Shown here: one piece after another, positions 1,982 through 35,700 of the stretch
Layout of the letters: every line of letters begins with the position of its first letter
How positions within the stretch are numbered: position 1 is the first letter of the stretch
Virus record (IMG/VR): IMGVR_UViG_3300009716_000731
Span: 1 to 64,000 of that record
Reading direction: 5' to 3' (one strand)
Length of the DNA: 64,000 bases
Source of the DNA: a virus
Lineage: Duplodnaviria; Caudoviricetes
The notes under the pieces: model-generated
What the model was told of the DNA's origin: nothing
What the model saw: only the letters and a program-made list of their open reading frames with translations
Databases searched by the model: none
Translations under genes and position numbers: made by a program

Positions 1982-2793
1982 CAATAAATAAAGCAACTAC
2001 CATTCCAAACACCACCACGTTCATTTACTGCTGGATTAAATAAATCTTCAAGAGCCATAACAATTTTTTGTAAATCACCTTTGTAAAATCCTGCGCAGTT
2101 GATACAATTTATTTCAACAATTTTCCAACCATCTGGTGTTAAACAAATATCCATTACAAAAGCTTTTGCTACTTGATATATATCAGACATTTTTTGAGCA
2201 AACTCTAATCCTTCCGGATCAACATTTTCAGACCAAACAACATTCTCGTTGAATTTATACCAAGAAGAAGTAATAACTTTACCACCAATAATCCAAACTC
2301 TTGCTTCTTTGTAAATCTTAATTGGTTCTGCAACTTGTATATTTACAGGTGGTATCACTCCTAAGTATTTTTCTTTAACTCTTTCTATTGTATCTTCCCA
2401 TTTGATTTGTGTAAATACTCCACCATTAAAAACTTTAGAGTCTTTACTTGGTCGAATAAACTTAGTTTTACCATCAAAGAAAATAGGATCAGATATATCT
2501 TGTAATTTACTCTTATAATTTAGTAAGTTTTCTTTGTAGTGATCTTTATAGATAGTAAAGTCGTGGTTACCACCATAGAAAGATCCAGGTTTCCAATCCA
2601 TATTAGTTGCTAATCTAGCAGCTCTAACAGAACCAAAAACAAATATGTCTTTACGTTTAACCATGAGATCGCTAAGCTCACCTTTCTCGTTAATTTTAAC
2701 GATTTCATAAGGTAGCTTTAATTTGGTTAAAGTCTCAAAAATTTTATTATAGTTTTCTTCTCGGAAAACATTTTCTTGTACTACGTAAAACAT
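1978..2793 (-). CDS. ATP-grasp domain protein (R2K-like)
   Basis: FIRPSKDSKVFNG, EARVWII, FVMDI...IVEINCINCAGFY are typical of phage ATP-grasp proteins. Confidence 0.7.
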   Translation of the reverse strand: MFYVVQENVFREENYNKIFETLTKLKLPYEIVKINEKGELSDLMVKRKDIFVFGSVRAARLATNMDWKPGSFYGGNHDFTIYKDHYKENLLNYKSKLQDISDPIFFDGKTKFIRPSKDSKVFNGGVFTQIKWEDTIERVKEKYLGVIPPVNIQVAEPIKIYKEARVWIIGGKVITSSWYKFNENVVWSENVDPEGLEFAQKMSDIYQVAKAFVMDICLTPDGWKIVEINCINCAGFYKGDLQKIVMALEDLFNPAVNERGGVWNGSCFIYC

Positions 2794-2879
2794 TATATAT
2801 AAATTTTATATAAAAATAAAAATAATATTTAAAACTTCCTATTTTTATTTCAAATCTATTTTTATTTTAGTTATTTTAG

Positions 2880-3135
2880 AAGAGAAATCAGGTAGTATAT
2901 CAATTAGTAATGCTTTATAATAAATCACAAGATAAAATATCTGATTTTTTACAGAAGGTACTTCTGGTCTTTCTAAATTTTTTATCTAAAATAGAAACTT
3001 TTAGTTTTGAATTTTGTTACCACTTTTTATCCAATCTATTTTGCAGTTTGCTGAACTGATTTCATTCTGTTTCTTGTTTTTTCATCATAAAATTCTTACA
3101 TAAGTAGAAACATTTCTCTACATATTGAGATTATT
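2880..3135 (-). pseudogene. degenerate partial duplicate of the genes at 3888-4328 and 4373-4570
   Basis: 3061-3133 aligns by eye with 4435-4506 (shared AGAAACATTTCTCTACATATTGAGATTAT); 2932-2975 aligns with 4010-4066 (ATAAAATATCTGATTTTTT...TCTGGTCT); frameshifts and stops present. Confidence 0.7.
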
Positions 3136-3141
3136 AAAAAC

Positions 3142-3891
3142 TTATTCTAACAAATCTATTTTTTCTTGATTCATAAAGTCTGGATCTCTAGAATCAATAC
3201 CTAAATCTATAAAAGCTTCTAATTTATCAATATCAATTTTAGACCACCATTTATGTATTGGATTATCAAAACAATATAAAGATATACACGATGGAGTAAA
3301 CTCAAGATTAACTAATTGATTATTATTACAATCAAAATAACCACCAACTGATTTAGGAGATCCTTCTAATGTGGTTAATTGATTATTTGAACAATCAAAA
3401 GAACCAACTGATTGTGGAGCACCTTCTAATGTGATTAATTGATTATTATCACAATAAAAACCATCTCCAACTAATTTAGGAGCTCCTTTCAAACTTGTTA
3501 ATTTATTATTATCACAATAAAAATTACCACCGACTGATTGCAGAGCCCCTTCCAATGTAGTTAATTTATTATATGAACAATCAAAATTACAACCAACTGA
3601 TTTAGGAACTCCTTCTAATGTGGTTAACTTATTATCTGAACAATAAAAACTACTACCAACCGATTTAGGAGCACCTTCTAATGTGGTTAATTTATTATAT
3701 GTACAATCAAAAGAACCAGCAATATTTTTAAATTTTAGTGGTAATTTAGTTAATTTTTTATTTTTTAAATTAACATTTCCATCAACATCAATAGAGCCAT
3801 CTTCATTAATGGTATAGTTATTTATACCATACTTTTGACATATAGATTCTATATTTTCTATGCTTTCATTAAACTTTCTTAAATATATCAT
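3142..3891 (-). CDS. leucine-rich-repeat-like protein (NxLTTLEGAPxSVGGxFxC repeats) with N-terminal tag
   Basis: About seven tandem 21-22 aa repeats; starts MIYLRKFNES. Confidence 0.85.
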   Translation of the reverse strand: MIYLRKFNESIENIESICQKYGINNYTINEDGSIDVDGNVNLKNKKLTKLPLKFKNIAGSFDCTYNKLTTLEGAPKSVGSSFYCSDNKLTTLEGVPKSVGCNFDCSYNKLTTLEGALQSVGGNFYCDNNKLTSLKGAPKLVGDGFYCDNNQLITLEGAPQSVGSFDCSNNQLTTLEGSPKSVGGYFDCNNNQLVNLEFTPSCISLYCFDNPIHKWWSKIDIDKLEAFIDLGIDSRDPDFMNQEKIDLLE

Positions 3892-4328
3892 AATATTTTT
3901 TTTGCTTTTATTTCAAGTCTAATTGTTTGTATCTTAAATGTAAGTGAAGTATCTTGCTCTTTTAATAATTCTTTTATTGTAAATCTTATACCATATGCTG
4001 GTGTTATAAATAAAATATCTGATTTTTTTATAGAGGGCACTTTTGAATCTCTCTCTGGTCTATCTACTTCATAGTATTCAGTAAGTTCTCTCAGAAAGTT
4101 AGGAAAGTACATCTTTACATCATTCCAATAAAAACACTTCATATTTAATTCTGAAATAGCAACTCTAACTGCGTAATAATTATCTCTTTCTATAATTAGT
4201 GTGTCTATCTAAAATCCTTCATCAATAAGGTAAGCTAGTCGATTACTAACAAACTCATAAACTTCTGCTTCTAATGATTCTACTTCTTCGTAAGAATTTA
4301 CACTTTCAAATAATCTTAAATATTTCAT
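3888..4328 (-). CDS. N-tagged hypothetical protein interrupted by one in-frame TAG (readthrough candidate or pseudogene)
   Basis: MKYLRLFESV...LAYLIDEGF-TAG(4209-4211)-IDTLII... continues in frame into ORF 3888..4142; TAATATATA upstream; resembles 5558..5932 (LEDEGFDIEV). Confidence 0.7.
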
Positions 4329-27009: not shown

Positions 27010-27019
27010 GGCTTTTTTT
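26989..27019. terminator. bidirectional intrinsic terminator
   Basis: AAAAAAAGCCTTAC-taa-GTAAGGCTTTTTTT. Confidence 0.8.
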
Positions 27020-27854
27020 ATTTTTGAAATTCGTCAAACTTCATAATTCTTGACTCAACAACAGTCTCTCTTCCAGATGTTGCGTTTCTTTCGATATTTT
27101 TCCATCTTTTGTTCAAGAACTCTAATTTCGCTTTGTCGATTTTACAGTTTCTATCTGAAATGTTTCCTTCATTAAACATATCAATCATTTGTTGCATACT
27201 TAATGTTGGATGTTTTTTATCAAACATTGGATCTGGATGTGACCAACCAAACTTAAACAACCAGTTTAACAAAGCCGCTTTGCTGTAATCTTTGTAATCA
27301 TCAGTTGTTCCATTACCACTTCTTTTTGAAAGTTTTTTATTACCATCAAATAACAAACCAGCGTGGATAACTTTAGGAAATGCTTTAGAACCTTCAACCT
27401 CACAAATCATATCCCAGATTTTTCTTTGCTTAACCTCATTAGCAATGTGATCTACACCACGGATAATATGGGTAACATCGTAATCGTAATCGTCTAAGAT
27501 TGAGCAAAAGTTGTAAGTAGGAAATCCGTTATTTCTTAAAATAACCATAGAATACTCTCCCATATCAATTTCGTAACCATTCTCGGTCTTAGTACCAATT
27601 TTCTCAGCAACTTCTTTATATCTATCTAATCTCTCAGATTGTCTGAAAGTTAAATCATAGTCTAATCCATAATCATGCATTTGATCATAGATATAATCTA
27701 CCCACTCTTCTCTGTTTCTTTCTTGATCAGTATCATCAATTCTAAGAATGAATTTACCGTTATTAGCTCTTGCCATCAAATAATTTAATAGAGCTGTGCG
27801 AAGGGTTCCAAGATGAAAAAAGCCAGTCGGCGACGGCGCGACGCGTGTTACCAT
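27018..27854 (-). CDS. minimal glutamyl-tRNA synthetase-like protein (catalytic domain only, GluQ-RS-like)
   Basis: RVAPSPTGFFHLG, LRIDDTD, QSER, PTYNF...DD...VTHIIRGVDH, KLSKR; no anticodon-binding domain. Confidence 0.85.
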   Translation of the reverse strand: MVTRVAPSPTGFFHLGTLRTALLNYLMARANNGKFILRIDDTDQERNREEWVDYIYDQMHDYGLDYDLTFRQSERLDRYKEVAEKIGTKTENGYEIDMGEYSMVILRNNGFPTYNFCSILDDYDYDVTHIIRGVDHIANEVKQRKIWDMICEVEGSKAFPKVIHAGLLFDGNKKLSKRSGNGTTDDYKDYSKAALLNWLFKFGWSHPDPMFDKKHPTLSMQQMIDMFNEGNISDRNCKIDKAKLEFLNKRWKNIERNATSGRETVVESRIMKFDEFQK

Positions 27855-27968: not shown

Positions 27969-29066
27969 ATGAAAAACTATATTTATATTTTGAAAGACCC
28001 AGTATCTAATGAAATTAAATACGTTGGAAAAAGTAATAATCCTGATAATAGACTTAAAAGACATCTTAGTGAGTCTAATCTAGTTGAATCTTGGACTTCT
28101 AAAAATAAGTGGTTATTATCTTTAAGAAAAAATAATTTATTTCCAATAATGGAAATTATTGATTCAACTGAATTAGATAATATCAACGAGTTAGAGGTTT
28201 ATTGGATAAAGTATTATCGTAATCTTGGTTTCAAATTAACTAATAGTACTGATGGTGGTGATGGTTTTGACTGGACTGGTAGGAGACATACCAACGAGTC
28301 TATCAAGCGGTTGAGATTATGTCATCCAAATAGGAAAGAGATTATTCAATTTGATTTAGCTAACAAAATAGTTAAAATTTATAATTCTATTCATGAATGT
28401 GAGTCTATTACTGGTTTAAGTCGTTCACATATAATTAAATGTTGTAAAAATGGTAAAAATAAAACCGTTGGTGGATTCTATTTTAGATATATCGATAATT
28501 ACTTTCCTTGTATTAAATCAATGACTGAACCTGATATGATTTATATAAATTCTAAAATAGAGGAATTCAATTTATCAAAACCGACTTATATAACTAAAAA
28601 AGAAAAATTAAGAAATAAATTAAAAGAGTCTGTTAAATCTAAGAAAAAGTCGATAATACATTATGATTTAGATGGTAATATATTAGGTAGATACGAATCT
28701 ATGAGTGAGGCTAGGAATTATACTGGATGTCACATCGGGTTAATCTCTAATTGTTGTAATAAAAAGAGTTATTATACAGTAAATAGCACTACTTTTAGAT
28801 ATGAGGGTGATGTATTTGATTATAAGCCTTATAATGTTAGTATTCAAGTTAATAGTAAAAGGGTATGTAAGTATGATTTAGATGGTAAACTAGTTGAGAT
28901 ATATGATTCGATCAAGCAAGCTATGAGAAATAATGGTATAACTAGTGATTCTAACATAGTATCTTGTTGTAAAAAGAAAACTAATAAGAAAACAGGTAAA
29001 TTTATTAAAGTTAAAGGATTTACATATAGATACTTTGACGAAACAGAAGGTAGAGATTTAATATAA
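27969..29066 (+). CDS. GIY-YIG homing endonuclease with NUMOD1-like repeats
   Basis: YIYIL...KYVGKS..R...H; LTN.T.GG; three x YDLDG..I..Y.S...I..CC repeats. Confidence 0.85.
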   Translation: MKNYIYILKDPVSNEIKYVGKSNNPDNRLKRHLSESNLVESWTSKNKWLLSLRKNNLFPIMEIIDSTELDNINELEVYWIKYYRNLGFKLTNSTDGGDGFDWTGRRHTNESIKRLRLCHPNRKEIIQFDLANKIVKIYNSIHECESITGLSRSHIIKCCKNGKNKTVGGFYFRYIDNYFPCIKSMTEPDMIYINSKIEEFNLSKPTYITKKEKLRNKLKESVKSKKKSIIHYDLDGNILGRYESMSEARNYTGCHIGLISNCCNKKSYYTVNSTTFRYEGDVFDYKPYNVSIQVNSKRVCKYDLDGKLVEIYDSIKQAMRNNGITSDSNIVSCCKKKTNKKTGKFIKVKGFTYRYFDETEGRDLI

Positions 29067-29521: not shown

Positions 29522-29584
29522 TTATTTTTTTATTGACCTAAGAAAAAATATAAAAGTTGGACCTCTGATTACAATCTATCTCAT
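29522..29584 (-). promoter_or_regulatory. amber-containing leader ORF MR*IVIRGPTFIFFLRSIKK*
   Basis: ATG AGA TAG ATT at 29584-29573. Confidence 0.6.
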
Positions 29585-29591
29585 ATTATTA

Positions 29592-30185
29592 TTATTTTTT
29601 GAATTCTGTAAATTTTTTAATTTTGAAAATTCTTCTAACATTTTCTAATTTAGCTTTTATATCAGTAAGAAGTTGTGTTTGTTCTTTATTAAGATCAAGT
29701 TTTTCAACTGCATCCACAATAGCACAAGTTTCTCTGTAATAGTTATTTCTAAATCTTTCAGAAGCTGTGAAAGCGTCTGCAATATTATTAAATCTATCTG
29801 ATAGCTTAACTGTTAAAGCATTTTCTGACATGTGAGTCATTTTGTAAATAAGGTAGTCCATTTTACTACCACCCCATTTATGTTTAATTTCATCTGTATC
29901 TGATGTTAATTCTAAAACTATATCAGCAATTTCTTTTCCAAAGATTTCTTTGATTTCTGCATAACCTTCCCATTTGTTTTCAAAGCAATCTTCAATTACA
30001 TCATGTAAAAGCGCAGCTACCAAAACAACAACGTTGGTTGTATAGAGCTTACAAGTTCCATTTACTTTTTGCACGTGAGCATCAAAGTAAGGCTGACCTG
30101 TAAATTTTCTTACTTGTCCTTCGTGTTTTGCTTTAGCATAATCCCATGCTAATTTTTCTAGTTTTGTTATAGGTGCGTTCGCCAT
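29592..30185 (-). CDS. HD-domain protein, RelA/SpoT hydrolase-like
   Basis: A..KHEGQVRK.TGQPYF.HV, AALLHDVIED, VKLSDRFNN. Confidence 0.85.
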   Translation of the reverse strand: MANAPITKLEKLAWDYAKAKHEGQVRKFTGQPYFDAHVQKVNGTCKLYTTNVVVLVAALLHDVIEDCFENKWEGYAEIKEIFGKEIADIVLELTSDTDEIKHKWGGSKMDYLIYKMTHMSENALTVKLSDRFNNIADAFTASERFRNNYYRETCAIVDAVEKLDLNKEQTQLLTDIKAKLENVRRIFKIKKFTEFKK

Positions 30186-30219: not shown

Positions 30220-30828
30220 TTATTTTTTCAATATCCACTCATAATAACCTTCTTTTTTGTTATTATCTACTCTTTCCCATAGTCCTGAATTTTGTACTGA
30301 GTCTGTCATATGTATATTAGAACCGAGTGGTTTTCCATTTTCATCGTAGATTTTCCAGGTATAATAGATATGCATACCTCTTTCAGTATCTACTCTTTTA
30401 TCTTGAAACCAAGTCCATCCTTTTTTCGCATTTTCAATCATTTCATTTTTTCCTTGTTCAAAAAACCTTTGATCTATCTCTTCATTTGAGTCAAATGCTT
30501 CTTTTGCTTTATCTATGATTCTTTGCTCTCTTTCATTTTTAATAACATAGCCTAACTCAAACTTAAATTTTTTCTCCATTTCTTCCCATTTCATACCTCT
30601 TTGGTATCTATTTTCTACATAATCCCATACTTCTTCGCAATAAATATCGACTTTATATCCTTTGGTAGAATAAACATATTCATCATTTTCGTTTATGTAT
30701 GCGTACGGACCATCCCAATATCCTTCTTTTGCTACTGCAAATTTTGGAATACCACCTTCCATTCTGATGTGACCATTTCCTTCTGGGTCAGCTTCTTGTA
30801 AAATCTTAATAAATTCTTTTGTTGTCAT
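30220..30828 (-). CDS. hypothetical protein
   Basis: 202 aa; EGYWDGPY motif. Confidence 0.75.
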   Translation of the reverse strand: MTTKEFIKILQEADPEGNGHIRMEGGIPKFAVAKEGYWDGPYAYINENDEYVYSTKGYKVDIYCEEVWDYVENRYQRGMKWEEMEKKFKFELGYVIKNEREQRIIDKAKEAFDSNEEIDQRFFEQGKNEMIENAKKGWTWFQDKRVDTERGMHIYYTWKIYDENGKPLGSNIHMTDSVQNSGLWERVDNNKKEGYYEWILKK

Positions 30829-30830
30829 AA

Positions 30831-31751
30831 TTAATTTTTATTTTTTAATAAAGTAAGCACTTGCTTTCCTCTTTTATCGATTTGTTTATATTTTATCTTA
30901 AATGATTGACTTTCAATACCACCAAACATACTTGCGTTTGCGTGTAATTCACAAAGTGCAGTAACTAATAAGGTTAAAACTGTTTGTATTGAATTATTCT
31001 TAACAAAATCTTCTACTTCATTTGCTTTGATGGTATGAAATACCATATCCTTTAAGATTAAGTCTGCGACAATCTTATTGTTAGAAATTTTGTTATAAGT
31101 ATCAAATGAAACTTGTGCGTGGTTTGGAAAATGTCTTTTACCTTCTTCATCAATCATAATACAGTAAGGTTTACCACAATCATGCATTACTTGATATTCA
31201 GTAATATCTTTTTCTGAGTGTAAATTACTCATAATAAAGTCTCTATTATCAGTAAACCAAGTTGGTAGTTTCCAATTCTCGGTTTTATTATCTGATAAAT
31301 CTTTGAAGTGTTTAGCTACAGAGAGGCCGTGTTCTAATACATTTTGTGTATTAGTTTGCGGAGTATTGATCATATCAGATATGACTTTATTGAAAGATGA
31401 TTTTTTAGGTTTACCTAAAAGTGGAAGGTATGAAACTTTCTTTCTGACATCTTTATCTGCATATAAACAAATAGATGTAAGTTCATCATTTAAGTCGGGT
31501 TCGTAAAATTTTGTAACAGGAGTTAATTTAGATAACTTTTGATATAAAGCATCTAATTCTTTTTTATTGTTTACTTGTAAACAAATGATTGAGTTGGAAT
31601 TTTGTTTCCAATCATTAAATTGTTGAGGAAATTCGTGTGCAAAGTCTGCAACTGAATGACAACTTTGTTGACTCTGATAACCATAACTAAGATCTGATCT
31701 TGTTATAACCATCATTTTTGTTTTCTCTTGTTTGTTTTTAATCTAAGTCAT
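30831..31751 (-). CDS. Pth2-like peptidyl-tRNA hydrolase domain fused to an HD domain; proposed start ATG-ACT-TAG-ATT
   Basis: KMMVITRSDL..G....Q..H, FYEPDL...LTSIC (Pth2-like); EHG...HDCGKP...HFPNHA (HD); ATG at 31751 is 12 codons upstream and in frame with 31715, TAG at 31743-31745. Confidence 0.75.
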
Positions 31752-31774
31752 TTTTATATAATTTTTAATTTTTT

Positions 31775-32659
31775 CTAATTTTTTTCAATATTATCGGAAT
31801 ATTTTATTCTAAATAATTTTATATTATTATTTTTACAATATTTATTTTTAATATTATCTCTCTTTTTTGAAATATGTAGTGCCTCGTTTCCTCCAAAATA
31901 ATCAACTGCCTCATAGTGTTGCCTACCATCGTACTCTATACATATATTGTATTCATTTAGATAAAAGTCAAATTTTAATTTTGATTTATAGATACAATCA
32001 TCAAATGTTTTATTTCTTATAAATTTTATATTACTATTAGATAGGTATTTATCTATGAATATTTCACCTTTTGAATCGCTACACTTCTTACACCCAAATC
32101 CTTTTAGATGATGATAAGGTGATTGAGTAAATTCTCCATGTTTTGGACAAACTATTGTAACTTTTACACTATTATTTATAAAAATAGTTTTATCATAATT
32201 ATATTTATTACTATGTATATCTTTTGCAATTTCTATAAACTCTGATTTTGTTTTATTATAATTATTTGAGCACTTTGAGCATCCTATACCTTTTATATGA
32301 TGTAGTGGAAGTTGTTCAAAGTTTCCATGTTCTGGGCAAGTTATGATAATTTTGGTATTTGTGTTTATATAAATGGAATTTTGGTATTTGTACTTATTTT
32401 TATGTATTTTATTAGATTCATTTATAAAATTTTCTAAACCCTTTGAGGATGAAGTACTTCTTTTCTCATTACCACACTTTGGACAACCACATCCTTTTAA
32501 GTAATGATTCTTAGGGCTTTGAGTGAAATTTCCATGTATAGGACAAGTTATAATAATTTTGGTATTATTATTTATATAATTAGAATACTCGTATGAGTAA
32601 AAGTTATTATGTTTTATTGATGACTTTTCAATAAATATCTGTAGTTTTTTATTTTCCAT
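31775..32659 (-). CDS. putative homing endonuclease (ITCPxHGxF...GCxKC repeats plus Vsr/DUF559-like domain)
   Basis: Three zinc-finger-like repeats; FDFYL...IEYDGRQHY. Confidence 0.8.
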   Translation of the reverse strand: MENKKLQIFIEKSSIKHNNFYSYEYSNYINNNTKIIITCPIHGNFTQSPKNHYLKGCGCPKCGNEKRSTSSSKGLENFINESNKIHKNKYKYQNSIYINTNTKIIITCPEHGNFEQLPLHHIKGIGCSKCSNNYNKTKSEFIEIAKDIHSNKYNYDKTIFINNSVKVTIVCPKHGEFTQSPYHHLKGFGCKKCSDSKGEIFIDKYLSNSNIKFIRNKTFDDCIYKSKLKFDFYLNEYNICIEYDGRQHYEAVDYFGGNEALHISKKRDNIKNKYCKNNNIKLFRIKYSDNIEKN

Positions 32660-32719
32660 ATTATATATATTAAAAAATAAAAATGGTTTGTTGTGGTTAG
32701 TAACCTTAATCTACATCAT
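32660..32719 (-). promoter_or_regulatory. amber-containing leader MM*IKVTNHNKPFLFFNIYN in frame with the endonuclease ATG
   Basis: ATG ATG TAG ATT at 32719-32708; 20 codons to the ATG at 32659 with no other stop. Confidence 0.6.
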
Positions 32720-32754: not shown

Positions 32755-32832
32755 TGATCCCACCAGGATTCGAACCCGATAACGCTGGGTTTAGAAGCCA
32801 GCTCACCACCAAGGTGATTACGTTGAAGGACC
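32755..32832 (-). tRNA. atypical tRNA with CUA (amber) anticodon
   Basis: GGTCCTT/TGGGATC-A acceptor; T arm TCGGG-TTCGAAT-CCTGG; anticodon arm GCTGGC-TTCTAAA-CCCAGC; non-canonical D arm TCACC-TTGGT-GGTGA; TATCTTTG promoter just upstream. Confidence 0.75.
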
Positions 32833-32883
32833 ATTTCTTTAATTGTTATACAAAGATACAACTATTTTTTATACCACCAAATT

Positions 32884-33424: not shown

Positions 33425-34444
33425 ATGAAGTATATTAAAACAGTTGATGAGTATTCTATAAATGAAGAATTGGAATTCAAAATGAGTTGGAGAGGATTTT
33501 TATTAGGTATATGTATTGTTGCTGCTTATAGGCACTATTTTCCTGCTAAGAAAAATCTCACTTTAGGTGAAATGAATAGAATTGTTGCTGATGTTGATAA
33601 CAAACCCACATTAAAAGAAAAAATTGCTATTAATGCTATAAAAAATAGCTTAATATCAGATCTTAAGCAAGATAAGAAAATCTCAGATGATGAAAGAAAG
33701 AAGCTAATAGATGGTATTAATACTATACCTTTTGTCTTAGTTGATACTGATACTATCCAACTAATTACTGGAAGGGATGCACTTGGTTGTTATTTTGGTT
33801 ACTTGGATAATTTCAAGAATCTAATGACAGTAATATTAGTTGATAGGGAAAGAATTAAATTAGGTACTGATTTTGATGAGGTTATACTACATGAGTTAAG
33901 ACATTTAGTTGATGATTTATTGGTTGATGGTAGAAAAGAATACAGTGAATTATCAAATATTGTTGATATATTAGACAAGGATATTGTTTTGAGGAATGAA
34001 GCAGGAGAGAGAAAGATAAGAAAAAAGATAAATGATTATATTGACGTAATGGTTAAAAAAACCGGTAGAGAAAATGATCCAAAGACTCAGGAAATTGGTC
34101 AAAGACTAAAAGATCAATATTTTGATATTATTTTTTTAGATAAAGATAAAATGAATTATTTAACATCATCATCGGAGATATATGCAAGATTTCATGGATT
34201 AAAAAGATGGATGATAAAAAATGGTTATCTAAAAGATATGAATAGTGAAATAACACAAGATATTATTGTTAAAATGATGCAAAATGAGCAATTGTTGGAT
34301 GTAAATATTATCAGAAAAGACTTCTTCCAATTATTATTTTATATGGATGTTGATTTTATAGGTAAAACGAAAAGTGATGTATCTAAACTAAACTCAATTG
34401 TAACAAATTATAGAGATTATATATCAAATGAAAAACCCGCTTAA
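33425..34444 (+). CDS. N-tagged zincin-like metalloprotease with a TM segment
   Basis: MKYIKTVDEYSINEE, hydrophobic stretch, LHELRH (HExxH), downstream EIYAR. Confidence 0.7.
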   Translation: MKYIKTVDEYSINEELEFKMSWRGFLLGICIVAAYRHYFPAKKNLTLGEMNRIVADVDNKPTLKEKIAINAIKNSLISDLKQDKKISDDERKKLIDGINTIPFVLVDTDTIQLITGRDALGCYFGYLDNFKNLMTVILVDRERIKLGTDFDEVILHELRHLVDDLLVDGRKEYSELSNIVDILDKDIVLRNEAGERKIRKKINDYIDVMVKKTGRENDPKTQEIGQRLKDQYFDIIFLDKDKMNYLTSSSEIYARFHGLKRWMIKNGYLKDMNSEITQDIIVKMMQNEQLLDVNIIRKDFFQLLFYMDVDFIGKTKSDVSKLNSIVTNYRDYISNEKPA

Positions 34445-35700
34445 AAGCGGATTTTTTCTTTTATAGCAGGCATATAAATTTCAATCAAATCGATCAATTC
34501 TTTTTTACATTCTAAAGTCAATGATTTACTTTTATTTTGATTCATCAAAATCATAAATGAACTAACAACTTTATTAAACTTAAAAGCTTCTGTATAGTCA
34601 AATATAGTTTTCTTAAATACTTCTATGTCAATAGTTTCCTCACCAGTTTTTTCCAACCAAGTTTTCATTCGATTAATAAATCGTCTAATACCAATTATAT
34701 TTTCATCTGACCAAGAACCACCATCAAAATAGTGACCAATAAACATCAAGTAAAATCTAATTTCATCTGAGTCATAACCATCCAAACTTACTACATTATC
34801 TTTTGACTTAGACATTTTTTCACCATTATTCAATATCATTCCTTGGTGTATCAATTTAGTAATAGGTTCCTCAAAATCAATAAAACCTATATCATACAAA
34901 AACATTGTAATAAATCTAATGTAGATCAAATGCATACAAGCATGTTCTGATCCACCAATATACAAATCTGCTGGTTTTGGTTTAATACCTTTCATCAAAC
35001 AATAAACAATAGTATAGATAGAACTATCTACAAAAGTGTCCATTGTATCGGTCTCACCTTCAATTGGAATAGGACAACCCCAATTTCTTTGTCTTGATAC
35101 GCACCAATCATGTTGATTTTCCAACCAATTTCTTTGAGCTTTTATCGTTGATTCCGGAAAATCGATTTTATCCAAATTAGCAATCAATCTTTCTTTATAA
35201 TCAGTAATTCTAAAATACCATTGATTCAAAATTTTCTTTTCAACTTGATTTGAGCATCTATCACATTTACCATCTTTTACTTGCTCTCTTGCCAAGACGG
35301 TTTCGCAACTATTACAAAAGTCAACTTCACCATCTTTTTTATAAGCCAATCCTTTATCATACAATTGCTTAAACAACCACTGTGTCCATTTAATGTATTC
35401 AGCATCTGAAGTAATCAACATTTCCTCATATTGAGTATTCATGTTTTTCATTTGCTGTCTAAAGTTTTCTATATTTTCATAGGTAACTTCTCTTGGATCC
35501 CTACCTACTTTTTTCGCATAGTTTTCTGCAGGCAATCCAAAAGCATCATAACCAAAAGGTTGAAAAACGTTAAATCCTTGATAACGCTTATATCTACAAT
35601 AACTATCTACAATAGCATAGTTATACCAATGACCACAATGCAATCCTGACCCTGATGGGTAAGGAAACATTGGAGTTATATACAAATTTTTTTGATCCAT
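34441..35700 (-). CDS. minimal leucyl-tRNA synthetase-like protein
   Basis: MFPYPSGSGLHCGH, GYDAFGLPAEN, DWCVSRQRNWG.PIP, ETDTMDTFVDSS, YIGGSEHA.MHL, KMSKS; 419 aa, CP1 editing and C-terminal domains missing. Confidence 0.88.
   Translation of the reverse strand: MDQKNLYITPMFPYPSGSGLHCGHWYNYAIVDSYCRYKRYQGFNVFQPFGYDAFGLPAENYAKKVGRDPREVTYENIENFRQQMKNMNTQYEEMLITSDAEYIKWTQWLFKQLYDKGLAYKKDGEVDFCNSCETVLAREQVKDGKCDRCSNQVEKKILNQWYFRITDYKERLIANLDKIDFPESTIKAQRNWLENQHDWCVSRQRNWGCPIPIEGETDTMDTFVDSSIYTIVYCLMKGIKPKPADLYIGGSEHACMHLIYIRFITMFLYDIGFIDFEEPITKLIHQGMILNNGEKMSKSKDNVVSLDGYDSDEIRFYLMFIGHYFDGGSWSDENIIGIRRFINRMKTWLEKTGEETIDIEVFKKTIFDYTEAFKFNKVVSSFMILMNQNKSKSLTLECKKELIDLIEIYMPAIKEKIRF

What the first reader, a model, noticed from the sequence alone, without database searches (positions are those of the whole stretch)
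30831..31751. Pth2-like hydrolase fused to an HD domain, with a minigene as its own start
The N-terminal part has Pth2-like motifs (K..VITRSDL, G...Q..H, EPD...T) and the C-terminal part is an HD domain (HDCGKP, HFPNHA). The Lys typical of the Pth2 start lies upstream of the annotated ATG, supporting initiation at ATG-ACT-TAG. A Met-Thr-stop minigene would generate the substrate that Pth removes, suggesting feedback control; the HD domain might heal tRNA ends (inference).
Basis: partly seen in the sequence, partly recalled or inferred. Interest (0 to 1): 0.7.

Follow-up and report, generated by a model that had tools for sequence, protein, structure and literature searches.

The report
Amber-gated phage Pth2-HD tRNA enzyme
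A huge-phage gene for a two-part enzyme that probably works on tRNA ends keeps a UAG stop as its third codon, and a UAG-reading tRNA lies 1 kb upstream, so the enzyme is probably made mainly when that tRNA overrides the stop, not by the "minigene feedback" first proposed.

Summary
Window 30831-31715 (-) encodes a Pth2-fold domain fused to an HD domain, and ATG-ACT-TAG (31751-31743) lies in frame 9 codons upstream.

- In 71 distinct homologous loci (30-100% aa identity, 23-72% GC) a short ATG leader, 2-4 codons in 66, ends in frame in TAG 70 times and TGA once.
- 65 of the 71 have no ATG/GTG/TTG between the stop and the domain. GC-richer relatives place a Shine-Dalgarno before the leader ATG.
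- ARAGORN found 26 tRNA(CUA) genes in the fetched loci, 25 on the gene's strand. Cultured Tenacibaculum phage pT24 is one such case.
- The window has its own odd-shaped tRNA(CUA) at 32832-32755 (-), behind a Bacteroidota-type promoter.
- This 151-kb phage piece otherwise uses the standard code.

Best reading: translation is gated by amber suppression. A generic minigene would accept any stop codon.

This copy is also a chimera. A homing-endonuclease cassette sits in the leader and brought a 5' tract with an internal ATG-ATG, a possible suppressor-independent start.

The enzyme's role is inferred. The HD domain is closest to that of CCA-adding enzymes, and the Pth2 domain lacks the usual Gly-Lys lysine.

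I found no paper describing this. This scan has reported the same device on other DNA and on this genome.

The parts
32851..32881 (-). Bacteroidota-type promoter, TTTG-N19-TAtcTTTG, ending 18 nt before the tRNA
   Evidence: Read. Almost invariant in 5 relatives and kept before the tRNA-like genes of L002, L005, L009 and L010. The consensus it is compared with is from my own knowledge.
32755..32832 (-). Odd-shaped tRNA(CUA), 78 nt, anticodon CTA at 32794-32792. It has an 8-9 nt linker between the acceptor and D stems and a 5-bp/5-nt D arm.
   Evidence: Missed by standard ARAGORN and by Rfam; found only in ARAGORN mitochondrial mode. Folds as a cloverleaf. 92-94% conserved in L006, L011, L021 and L027/28. 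93% of cells paired against 33-54% for slid controls, and two D-stem pairs change on both sides.
32711..32719 (-). Resident amber leader ATG ATG TAG, the original 5' end of the enzyme gene. It is now in frame with the homing-endonuclease ORF.
   Evidence: Same leader and upstream sequence as the closest relative L001, where it directly heads the Pth2-HD ORF. In-frame continuity shown.
31775..32659 (-). Homing-endonuclease gene (DUF723/HNH-like, 294 aa) inserted right after TAGATTAA
   Evidence: Pfam and PHROG hits. Identical junction in L002, where the endonuclease ORF ends at the leader TAG.
31743..31751 (-).
31656..31760 (-). Co-conversion tract: leader, spacer and the first ~20 codons come from a 'type A' allele
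   Evidence: 85-93% identical to L002 (60-column windows) but only about 60% to L001 here. Downstream it is 88-100% identical to L001 (mostly at least 95%) and mostly 65-88% to L002.
31716..31742 (-). Nine in-frame codons (IKNKQEKTK) between the TAG and ATG-ATG; they include the conserved Lys before strand 1
   Evidence: Strand E9-15 of the model.
31413..31715 (-). Pth2-fold domain, starting at the internal ATG ATG (31715-31710)
30831..31400 (-). HD domain of the CCA-adding-enzyme type, plus the stop codon
29592..30185 (-). SpoT/RelA-type HD_4 hydrolase gene. In relatives it follows the Pth2-HD gene directly.
   Evidence: Pfam HD_4 at 1e-12; NCBIfam spoT_relA N-terminal part; synteny.
29522..29584 (-). 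Third amber leader, ATG AGA TAG ATT, heading a mini-ORF (M-R-stop-IVIRGPT...)
   Evidence: Conserved after the HD_4 gene in L002, L005, L009, L010, L011 and L013.

Best explanation
The gene encodes a two-domain enzyme. The N-terminal domain has the Pth2 fold, an esterase type that acts at the tRNA 3' end. The C-terminal domain is an HD phosphohydrolase closest to the HD domain of CCA-adding enzymes. Across the family, the gene starts at a normal ribosome-binding site with ATG plus 1-3 codons, and then carries an in-frame UAG. Ribosomes finish the protein only if the UAG is decoded. The decoder is most likely the phage's own tRNA(CUA), which lies on the same strand: 1 kb upstream here and next to the gene in many relatives. 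Synthesis of the enzyme is therefore tied to the presence of an active amber suppressor.

Shown: the conserved TAG, the lack of another start codon in most relatives, the link to tRNA(CUA) genes, the standard code elsewhere on this contig, and both folds.

Inferred: that the tRNA is made and charged and that it reads this UAG. Also inferred is that the enzyme works on tRNA 3' ends, either clearing by-products of suppression or holding the suppressor in check.

In this window a homing-endonuclease cassette has landed in the leader. It brought a 5' tract with an internal ATG-ATG, so this copy may also be made without suppression. That shorter product would lack the conserved Lys.
For: 1. TAG conservation. 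71 distinct loci have TAG 70 times and TGA once. The leader is 2-4 codons in 66 of them. 65 of 71 have no ATG/GTG/TTG between the stop and the domain. The spacer is 2-73 codons long and always open.
2. Start site. Shine-Dalgarno-like GGAG/AGGAG precedes the leader ATG in GC-richer loci such as L066, L048 and L054.
3. Sequence context after the stop is TAG-RTT-AA: purine at +4 in 68 of 71 and T at +5 in 64 of 71.
4. tRNA linkage. 26 of 77 tRNAs that ARAGORN found in the loci read CUA, and 25 of those 26 lie on the gene's strand, just upstream or downstream.
5. Cultured case. Complete phage pT24 has ATG AAA TAG heading its homologue. Its annotators started at a later Met, which truncates the domain. 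It also has a tRNA(CUA) 2.5 kb upstream on the same strand.
6. Huge-phage case. The 634-kb phage LR745206 has ATG AAC AAT TAG.
7. This window has a conserved, promoter-driven tRNA(CUA) with compensatory D-stem changes.
8. No general recoding. Code 11 gives dense ORFs. Only 5 early-TAG long frames occur in 151 kb, and two of them are in this locus.
9. The two domains are always adjacent: fused in 49 loci, HD gene first in 14, split or in another frame in 21.
Against: - Nothing is experimental.
- The window's tRNA is abnormal in shape, standard tRNA finders reject it, and its charging is unknown.
- TAG ends about 14% of long ORFs in this genome (26 of 188), so a strong suppressor would also run through the phage's own stops.
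- Of the 71 distinct loci, ARAGORN found a tRNA(CUA) in 20 and a pattern search found an odd form in 7 more. By sequence identity or the shared promoter I placed odd forms in at least 6 further loci and in the window. The rest are mostly short contigs or 1.5-kb flanks, so absence there is uninformative.
- The close relatives L002, L005, L009 and L010 carry a 65-66 nt CUA 'form 2' RNA whose tRNA fold is unclear.
- This copy has an internal ATG-ATG, and the endonuclease gene separates it from the resident leader.
- The codon after TAG is nearly always Ile or Val (ATT, ATA, GTT, GTA), which could instead point to an unusual restart.
Confidence: 0.6

Rival explanations
1. In this window the ATG-ACT-TAG leader is only a relic carried in with the homing-endonuclease cassette. 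The protein is simply made from ATG-ATG at 31715, independent of any suppressor. This is compatible with amber gating in the rest of the family.
For: The internal ATG-ATG occurs only in 'type A' alleles: the window, L002 and L005/L008/L013. The 5' ~105 nt were co-converted from such an allele. The endonuclease gene separates the gene from the resident leader.
Against: The product would lack the Lys before strand 1, which is conserved family-wide. Type A alleles still keep the TAG leader, the open in-frame spacer and a CUA tRNA-like gene behind the same promoter.
Confidence: 0.15
2. The early UAG is read through by ordinary near-cognate host tRNAs whenever release factor 1 is slow or scarce. 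It would then act as an attenuator or an RF1 sensor, like the in-frame UGA of prfB, and needs no dedicated tRNA.
For: The stop is specifically TAG, the RF1-only codon. It follows a very short nascent peptide and has a purine at +4. Many loci show no tRNA(CUA) within their short flanks.
Against: It does not explain why about a third of all tRNAs next to the gene read CUA and lie on its strand, nor the tRNA(CUA) in complete phage pT24 and in this window.
Confidence: 0.12
3. Termination-reinitiation: ribosomes translate the 2-4 codon leader, stop at UAG, and restart at the adjoining AUU/AUA/GUU codon.
For: The codon after TAG is ATT, ATA, GTT or GTA in most loci. ATT and ATA are rare bacterial start codons (table 11).
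Against: At least eight lineages have ACT, AGC, AAC, TTA, GCA or CTG after the TAG. GTT and GTA are not start codons. Any stop codon would serve, yet TAG is used in 70 of 71 loci. The model gives the neighbouring tRNA(CUA) no role.
Confidence: 0.08
4. One reading: Met-Thr-stop is a lambda-bar-like minigene. Its dropped-off fMet-Thr-tRNA is the substrate of the encoded Pth, giving feedback control.
For: The leader is a 2-4 codon ORF with a real ribosome-binding site. Two-codon minigenes are known to load Pth (lambda bar; my own knowledge). Without suppression it would behave as a minigene.
Against: The stop is TAG-specific and always in frame, and most relatives have no separate start codon for the enzyme. 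The leader codon before the stop varies (Thr, Lys, Leu, Asn, Ser and others), so no particular tRNA is targeted. The Gly-Lys lysine of canonical Pth2 is Tyr in this family, so Pth activity itself is unproven.
Confidence: 0.05

Closest known systems
Stop-codon-recoded phages with their own suppressor tRNAs (TAG read as Gln, 'code 15'; shown by metaproteomics in crAss-like phages, PMC9523058)
   Same: A phage-encoded tRNA(CUA) is used to read in-frame TAG codons in phage genes, and recoding has been proposed as a timing device.
   Different: Here the rest of the 151-kb contig uses the standard code and TAG ends ordinary genes. The TAG sits at one fixed place, codon 3-5, of one gene family plus a mini-ORF. 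That is a single-gene lock, not a genome-wide code.
prfB (RF2) autoregulation through an early in-frame UGA (own knowledge)
   Same: A translation-related gene keeps an early in-frame stop, so its synthesis reports on how that stop is handled.
   Different: No frameshift is needed here, because the ORF continues in frame 0. The product is not known to act on the stop codon. A dedicated tRNA gene accompanies it.
Lambda bar minigenes and Pth (own knowledge)
   Same: An ATG plus one to three codons plus a stop, behind a ribosome-binding site, in a phage, with a link to peptidyl-tRNA hydrolase.
   Different: bar minigenes end in TAA or TGA and are not in frame with a downstream enzyme. Here the stop is TAG only, always in frame, and paired with tRNA(CUA).
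Archaeal and eukaryotic Pth2 (PDB 1wn2, 2zv3, 3erj, 1xty, 1q7s) and PTH2 of jumbo phages, placed in RNA repair by Iyer et al. 2021 (PMC7824862)
   Same: Same fold (Z 14.4) and a Pfam PF01981 hit above the cut-off. Phage PTH2 is already known as a family.
   Different: The Gly-Lys lysine aligns with Tyr, and the Asp of the D-A-G motif aligns with the Glu of E-P-D. The domain is fused or adjacent to an HD domain. The paper's text contains no mention of a suppressor.
HD domain of class II CCA-adding enzymes (PDB 3wfo-3wfs). The E. coli Cca HD domain has 2',3'-cyclic phosphodiesterase and phosphatase activity (own knowledge).
   Same: Best structural match (Z 14.8) and the only sequence-level PDB match for the C-terminal domain: HDxGKP...HFPNH aligns with HDIGKP...FYEH.
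   Different: There is no nucleotidyltransferase head. The domain stands behind a Pth2 fold instead. Its activity is untested.

Membership tests
Pth2 (PF01981, peptidyl-tRNA hydrolase 2) | Profile match above the curated threshold | tested here: met
   Pfam 28.6 bits against 23, but only profile positions 3-73 of 115 are covered. The stricter NCBIfam equivalog cut-offs are not reached: 22.7 against 82, and 22.4 against 126.
Pth2 (PF01981, peptidyl-tRNA hydrolase 2) | Pth2 alpha/beta fold | tested here: met
   1wn2_A at Z 14.4, rmsd 1.9 A over 105 residues. Foldseek 2zv3 at E 9e-6 with target-normalised TM 0.72.
Pth2 (PF01981, peptidyl-tRNA hydrolase 2) | Conserved Gly-Lys lysine and D-A-G aspartate. 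They are reported as essential in S. solfataricus Pth2 (K18, D86); that role is from my own memory and was not checked in a paper here. | tested here: not met
   HMM alignments to 24bt, 2zv3 and 1rzw place Tyr (G-Y-Q) at the Lys and Glu (E-P-D) at the Asp. Q17, H20, E72, P73 and D74 are invariant in the family.
Pth2 (PF01981, peptidyl-tRNA hydrolase 2) | Hydrolysis of peptidyl-tRNA | not testable with these tools
   Needs an enzyme assay or complementation of pth(ts).
HD-domain phosphohydrolase superfamily | H...HD...H...D metal-binding residues | tested here: met
   H129, H178-D179, H195, H199, D223 and H227 are invariant in 18 homologues. The corresponding residues are also invariant in 54, except the first His of HFPNH, which is nearly invariant.
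HD-domain phosphohydrolase superfamily | HD fold | tested here: met
   3wfo_A at Z 14.8. PhnZ, PPX/GppA, PgpH, the GlyRS-beta HD domain and YhaM score 8-10, and SpoT 7.8. There is no PF01966 hit for this single sequence, but PF01966 is on record for homologues P0062 and P0077.
Genome-wide TAG recoding (code 15) | In-frame TAG in many genes; ORFs fragmented under code 11 | tested here: not met
   Dense code-11 ORFs. Reading TAG as sense adds less ORF length than reading TGA as sense. Only 10 frames are split by TAG and 5 long frames have an early TAG in 151 kb. The contig is probably a fragment of a larger genome, so the rest is untested.
Genome-wide TAG recoding (code 15) | Phage-encoded tRNA(CUA) | tested here: met
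   Window 32832-32755 (-), odd-shaped.
Bar-type minigene | Free-standing 2-3 codon ORF ending in any stop, not continuous with a downstream ORF | tested here: not met
   TAG in 70 of 71 loci, always in frame with the enzyme ORF, and usually the only start available.
prfB-like autoregulatory stop | The product acts on its own in-frame stop, and a frameshift is required | tested here: not met
   The ORF continues in frame 0. Any action of the product on UAG decoding is unknown.

The most novel reading that the evidence does not exclude
The locus is a self-contained orthogonal translation switch. An abnormally shaped tRNA(CUA) would be charged not by host enzymes but by one of the phage's own domain-stripped synthetases encoded nearby: the 419-aa LeuRS core at 34441-35700, or the 278-aa GluRS-like core at 27018-27854. 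It would open UAG-locked genes. The main product, a Pth2-HD enzyme acting on tRNA 3' ends, would then deacylate or trim that same tRNA, forming a negative-feedback homeostat for suppression.
Probability: 0.12. Interest if true: 0.9.

Novelty: new variant of a known kind. Interest (0 to 1): 0.75.

Why it matters
If this is right, large phages that otherwise use the normal genetic code keep a private lock and key. The lock is a UAG at a fixed early codon of one enzyme gene. The key is a phage tRNA that reads it.

That would be a natural translational switch, distinct from genome-wide recoding and from the RF2 frameshift. It is widespread (23-72% GC; lake, soil and marine phages) and testable in a cultured system, Tenacibaculum phage pT24.

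There is also a practical consequence. Annotators truncate these genes or call them under a wrong code. pT24 BPT24_235 starts at a later Met, and database callers used TAG=Q.

The odd tRNAs and the mini-synthetases beside them may interest people who build orthogonal translation systems.

Tried and rejected
- **Genome-wide TAG recoding.** Rejected for this contig.
- **A promoter or other DNA motif.** ACTTAGATTAA is not enriched in the window: 6 matches with up to one mismatch against 8.2 expected.
- **"The internal ATG arose after loss of the tRNA."** I expected type A alleles to lack a CUA RNA. BLAST with the window's tRNA found nothing in five related records, and a positive control worked. 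However, the same promoter in L002, L005, L009 and L010 drives a different 65-66 nt CUA tRNA-like RNA. Both type A and type B alleles carry one, so the idea fails.
- **Standard tRNA detection.** ARAGORN and Rfam at E<=1 do not find the window's tRNA. ARAGORN on about 350 kb of three related records found only Met and Cys tRNAs and one unassigned call.
- **Hopping or frameshifting.** Not needed, because the ORF is in frame 0 and the spacer is conserved as protein.
- **First structure string for the pair count.** It was one column out of register and gave meaningless numbers. It was corrected.
- **Literature.** Six of the seven full-text searches looked for phage suppressor tRNA together with Pth2, an amber leader, recoding or huge phages; none found a description of this device. 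The seventh, for the Pth2 catalytic residues, found no usable source.
- **Shuffle test on the tRNA.** With only 5 sequences the covariation is not significant (132 of 500). Only the slid-register control and the two double changes support the fold.

Full report
**What is at the coordinates**

The minus strand carries a 294-aa ORF at 31715-30831. Nine codons upstream and in frame lies ATG ACT TAG at 31751-43.

The N-terminal ~100 residues match Pfam PTH2 (E 1.8e-6, above the gathering score). A family profile matches solved Pth2 proteins at E 2e-7 to 4e-4.

I made an AlphaFold2 model of the 303-aa form that starts right after the TAG (54-sequence alignment, pLDDT 94.8). It has two domains.
- Residues 5-110 superpose on P. 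horikoshii Pth2 at Z 14.4, rmsd 1.9 A. Foldseek finds the other Pth2 structures.
- Residues 115-303 are an HD fold. The best match is residues 250-447 of a class II CCA-adding enzyme, 3wfo, at Z 14.8. That is clearly above the next HD proteins at about 10.
- 3wfo-type chains are also the only sequence-level PDB match for this domain: HDxGKP...HFPNH aligns with HDIGKP...FYEH.
- The H/HD/H/H/D residues are invariant or nearly so in 54 homologues.

**The Pth2 domain is not canonical**

The Gly-Lys lysine of archaeal and human Pth2 aligns with a conserved Tyr (G-Y-Q). The Asp of D-A-G aligns with the Glu of an invariant E-P-D. From memory, that Lys/Asp pair is essential in S. solfataricus Pth2; I could not confirm this in a paper here. 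I therefore treat "peptidyl-tRNA hydrolase" as a fold assignment, not a proven activity.

**The leader is a family trait**

The closest database homologues looked 10-12 residues longer (MTQINK...). Look-up showed that their "Q" is a TAG which the gene caller had read as Gln ("with_TAG=Q").

I collected 13 close loci, 80 metagenome loci, phage pT24 and a 634-kb uncultured phage. I anchored each by tblastn and walked upstream in frame. Among 71 distinct loci (30-100% aa identity, 23-72% GC):
- The first upstream stop is TAG in 70 and TGA in one.
- An ATG lies 2-4 codons before it in 66.
- 65 have no ATG, GTG or TTG between the stop and the conserved K-L-x-V-x-T-R start of the domain.
- The spacer between stop and domain varies from 2 to 73 codons and is always open.
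- GC-richer loci have GGAG or AGGAG at the usual distance before the leader ATG.

Four distant stand-alone Pth2 paralogues have ordinary ATG starts and no such leader.

pT24 has ATG AAA TAG followed by 16 open codons. Its annotators chose a downstream Met, which cuts off the first strand and helix.

**Why this is not a generic minigene**

TAA ends 140 of 188 long ORFs in this genome and TAG only 26, yet the leader stop is always TAG.

ARAGORN on the fetched loci found 26 tRNA(CUA) genes among 77 tRNAs. Of these, 25 lie on the gene's strand. They sit either 120-960 nt upstream of the Pth2 domain start or within a few hundred bases after the gene. pT24, a complete cultured genome, has one 2.5 kb upstream on the same strand, annotated tRNA-Sup.

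**The window's own tRNA**

Standard ARAGORN and Rfam find nothing near the gene. The minus strand at 32832-32755, however, reads as a 78-nt tRNA with anticodon loop U-U-CUA-A-A, a normal T arm, and an 8-9 nt linker before a 5-bp D stem.
- It is 92-94% conserved in five relatives.
- 93% of cells pair, against 33-54% in slid controls, and two D-stem pairs change on both sides.
- It sits 18 nt behind a conserved TTTG-N19-TAnnTTTG promoter, which from my own knowledge is the Bacteroidota type.
- Other close relatives carry a different 65-66 nt CUA RNA behind the same promoter. Its fold is unclear.

**The code elsewhere is standard**

ORFs are dense under code 11. Reading TAG as sense gains less ORF length than reading TGA as sense.

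In 151 kb only five ATG-(1-6 codons)-TAG leaders are followed by 90 or more open codons, and two of them are in this locus. A third conserved ATG-AGA-TAG-ATT heads a mini-ORF after the neighbouring HD_4 gene, here and in six relatives.

Related contigs are estimated at 13-60% complete. This contig is therefore probably a fragment of a much larger phage, and the rest of its genome is untested.

**This copy is a chimera**

Directly after the tRNA comes ATG ATG TAG ATT AA (32719...). This is the leader of the nearest relative L001, whose protein is 96% identical. Here it runs in frame into a 294-aa DUF723/HNH homing-endonuclease ORF.

The same junction, TAGATTAA followed by GGTTAC, occurs in L002, where the endonuclease ORF ends exactly at the second leader's TAG.

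The first ~105 nt of the window's gene region are 85-93% identical to L002 but only about 60% to L001. The remainder is 88-100% identical to L001, mostly at least 95%. That is the co-conversion signature of homing.

The imported tract carries ATG-ATG at the start of the domain. This offers a suppressor-independent start whose product would lack the conserved Lys.

**How it most likely works**

Ribosomes start at the leader ATG and meet UAG after one to three codons. They complete the enzyme only if the UAG is decoded, most plausibly by the phage tRNA(CUA). The conserved purine at +4 (TAG-RTT-AA) is, from my own knowledge, a context that favours suppressor tRNA over RF1.

The Pth2 and HD parts are always neighbours: fused in 49 loci, HD gene first in 14, split or frame-shifted in 21. 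Both have relatives that act on tRNA 3' ends.

The purpose is inferred. The enzyme may clear or repair tRNA by-products that arise when stops are overridden, or it may feed back on the suppressor.

The rivals are listed with odds: a relic leader in this copy, RF1-limited read-through, restart at the next codon, and minigene feedback.

**What is known**

PTH2 in jumbo phages is described as part of RNA repair (PMC7824862). Phage suppressor tRNAs and code 15 are established (PMC9523058). Six searches aimed at this device found no paper on an amber-locked Pth2 gene.

This scan has reported the same device on other genomes and on this one. My coordinates for the tRNA agree with note e1-5749637. 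The third leader came to me as a lead from e1-5749636, and I then verified it.

Noticed in passing
window 31775-32659 (-), with flanks 32705-32719 and 31743-31760: A DUF723/HNH-like homing-endonuclease cassette is inserted exactly after TAGATTAA of the amber leader. That sequence is repeated on both sides, and the endonuclease ORF is in frame with the upstream leader. In L002 the whole stretch (leader, endonuclease, Pth2-HD) is one frame interrupted only by two TAGs. In the window, one base fewer in an A-run makes the endonuclease ORF end 8 codons earlier, at another TAG.
   Followed up: yes
window 34441-35700 (-): A 419-aa LeuRS-like catalytic core (leuS_bact 375 bits, matched in four pieces) that appears to lack the editing and C-terminal tRNA-binding domains. 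It is conserved in synteny in relatives L002 and L005, and could be a candidate charger for the odd tRNA.
   Followed up: partly
window 27018-27854 (-): A 278-aa GluRS/GluQRS-like catalytic domain without an anticodon-binding domain. The same gene lies near the locus in L005.
   Followed up: partly
window 29592-30185 (-): A small SpoT/RelA-type HD_4 hydrolase (197 aa). In relatives it directly follows the Pth2-HD gene. It resembles small alarmone hydrolases.
   Followed up: partly
window 29522-29584 (-): A third ATG-AGA-TAG-ATT leader heading a mini-ORF (IVIRGPT...). It is conserved after the HD_4 gene in six relatives. In the window the frame stays open for 17 codons, against 7 in relatives.
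   Followed up: partly
window 30220-30828 (-): A 202-aa ORF with no family hit lies between the Pth2-HD and HD_4 genes. Relatives L002 and L005 have no gene at this place, so it is probably an insertion.
   Followed up: no
window 27969-29066 (+): A GIY-YIG/NUMOD homing-endonuclease gene (365 aa), the second free-standing endonuclease within 5 kb.
   Followed up: no
L002 2718-2782, L005 3480-3545, L009 2684-2749, L010 2688-2753: A 'form 2' 65-66 nt RNA behind the same promoter. It has a T arm and a CUCUAAA loop but no evident D arm. In L005 and L009 the acceptor pairing has two mismatches. It could be an armless suppressor tRNA or a decaying one.
   Followed up: partly
L052, L061, L071 (about 750-1400 nt downstream of the Pth2 start): Some phages carry two different tRNA(CUA) genes side by side. 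One begins with U1 and, in L052, ends G73-CCA, so U1 could pair with A72. From memory these are bacterial tRNA-Gln identity features. The other has A73.
   Followed up: no
L019 (LR745206.1) 2475-4073: In a 634-kb uncultured phage the amber-led Pth2 part and the HD part are separate ORFs, with a 219-aa ORF of unknown function inserted between them.
   Followed up: partly
L045, leader: The only exception among 71 loci: its leader ends in TGA (ATG GAA GAA AAC ACT TGA ATT). No tRNA(UCA) was seen in the 2.4-kb contig.
   Followed up: no
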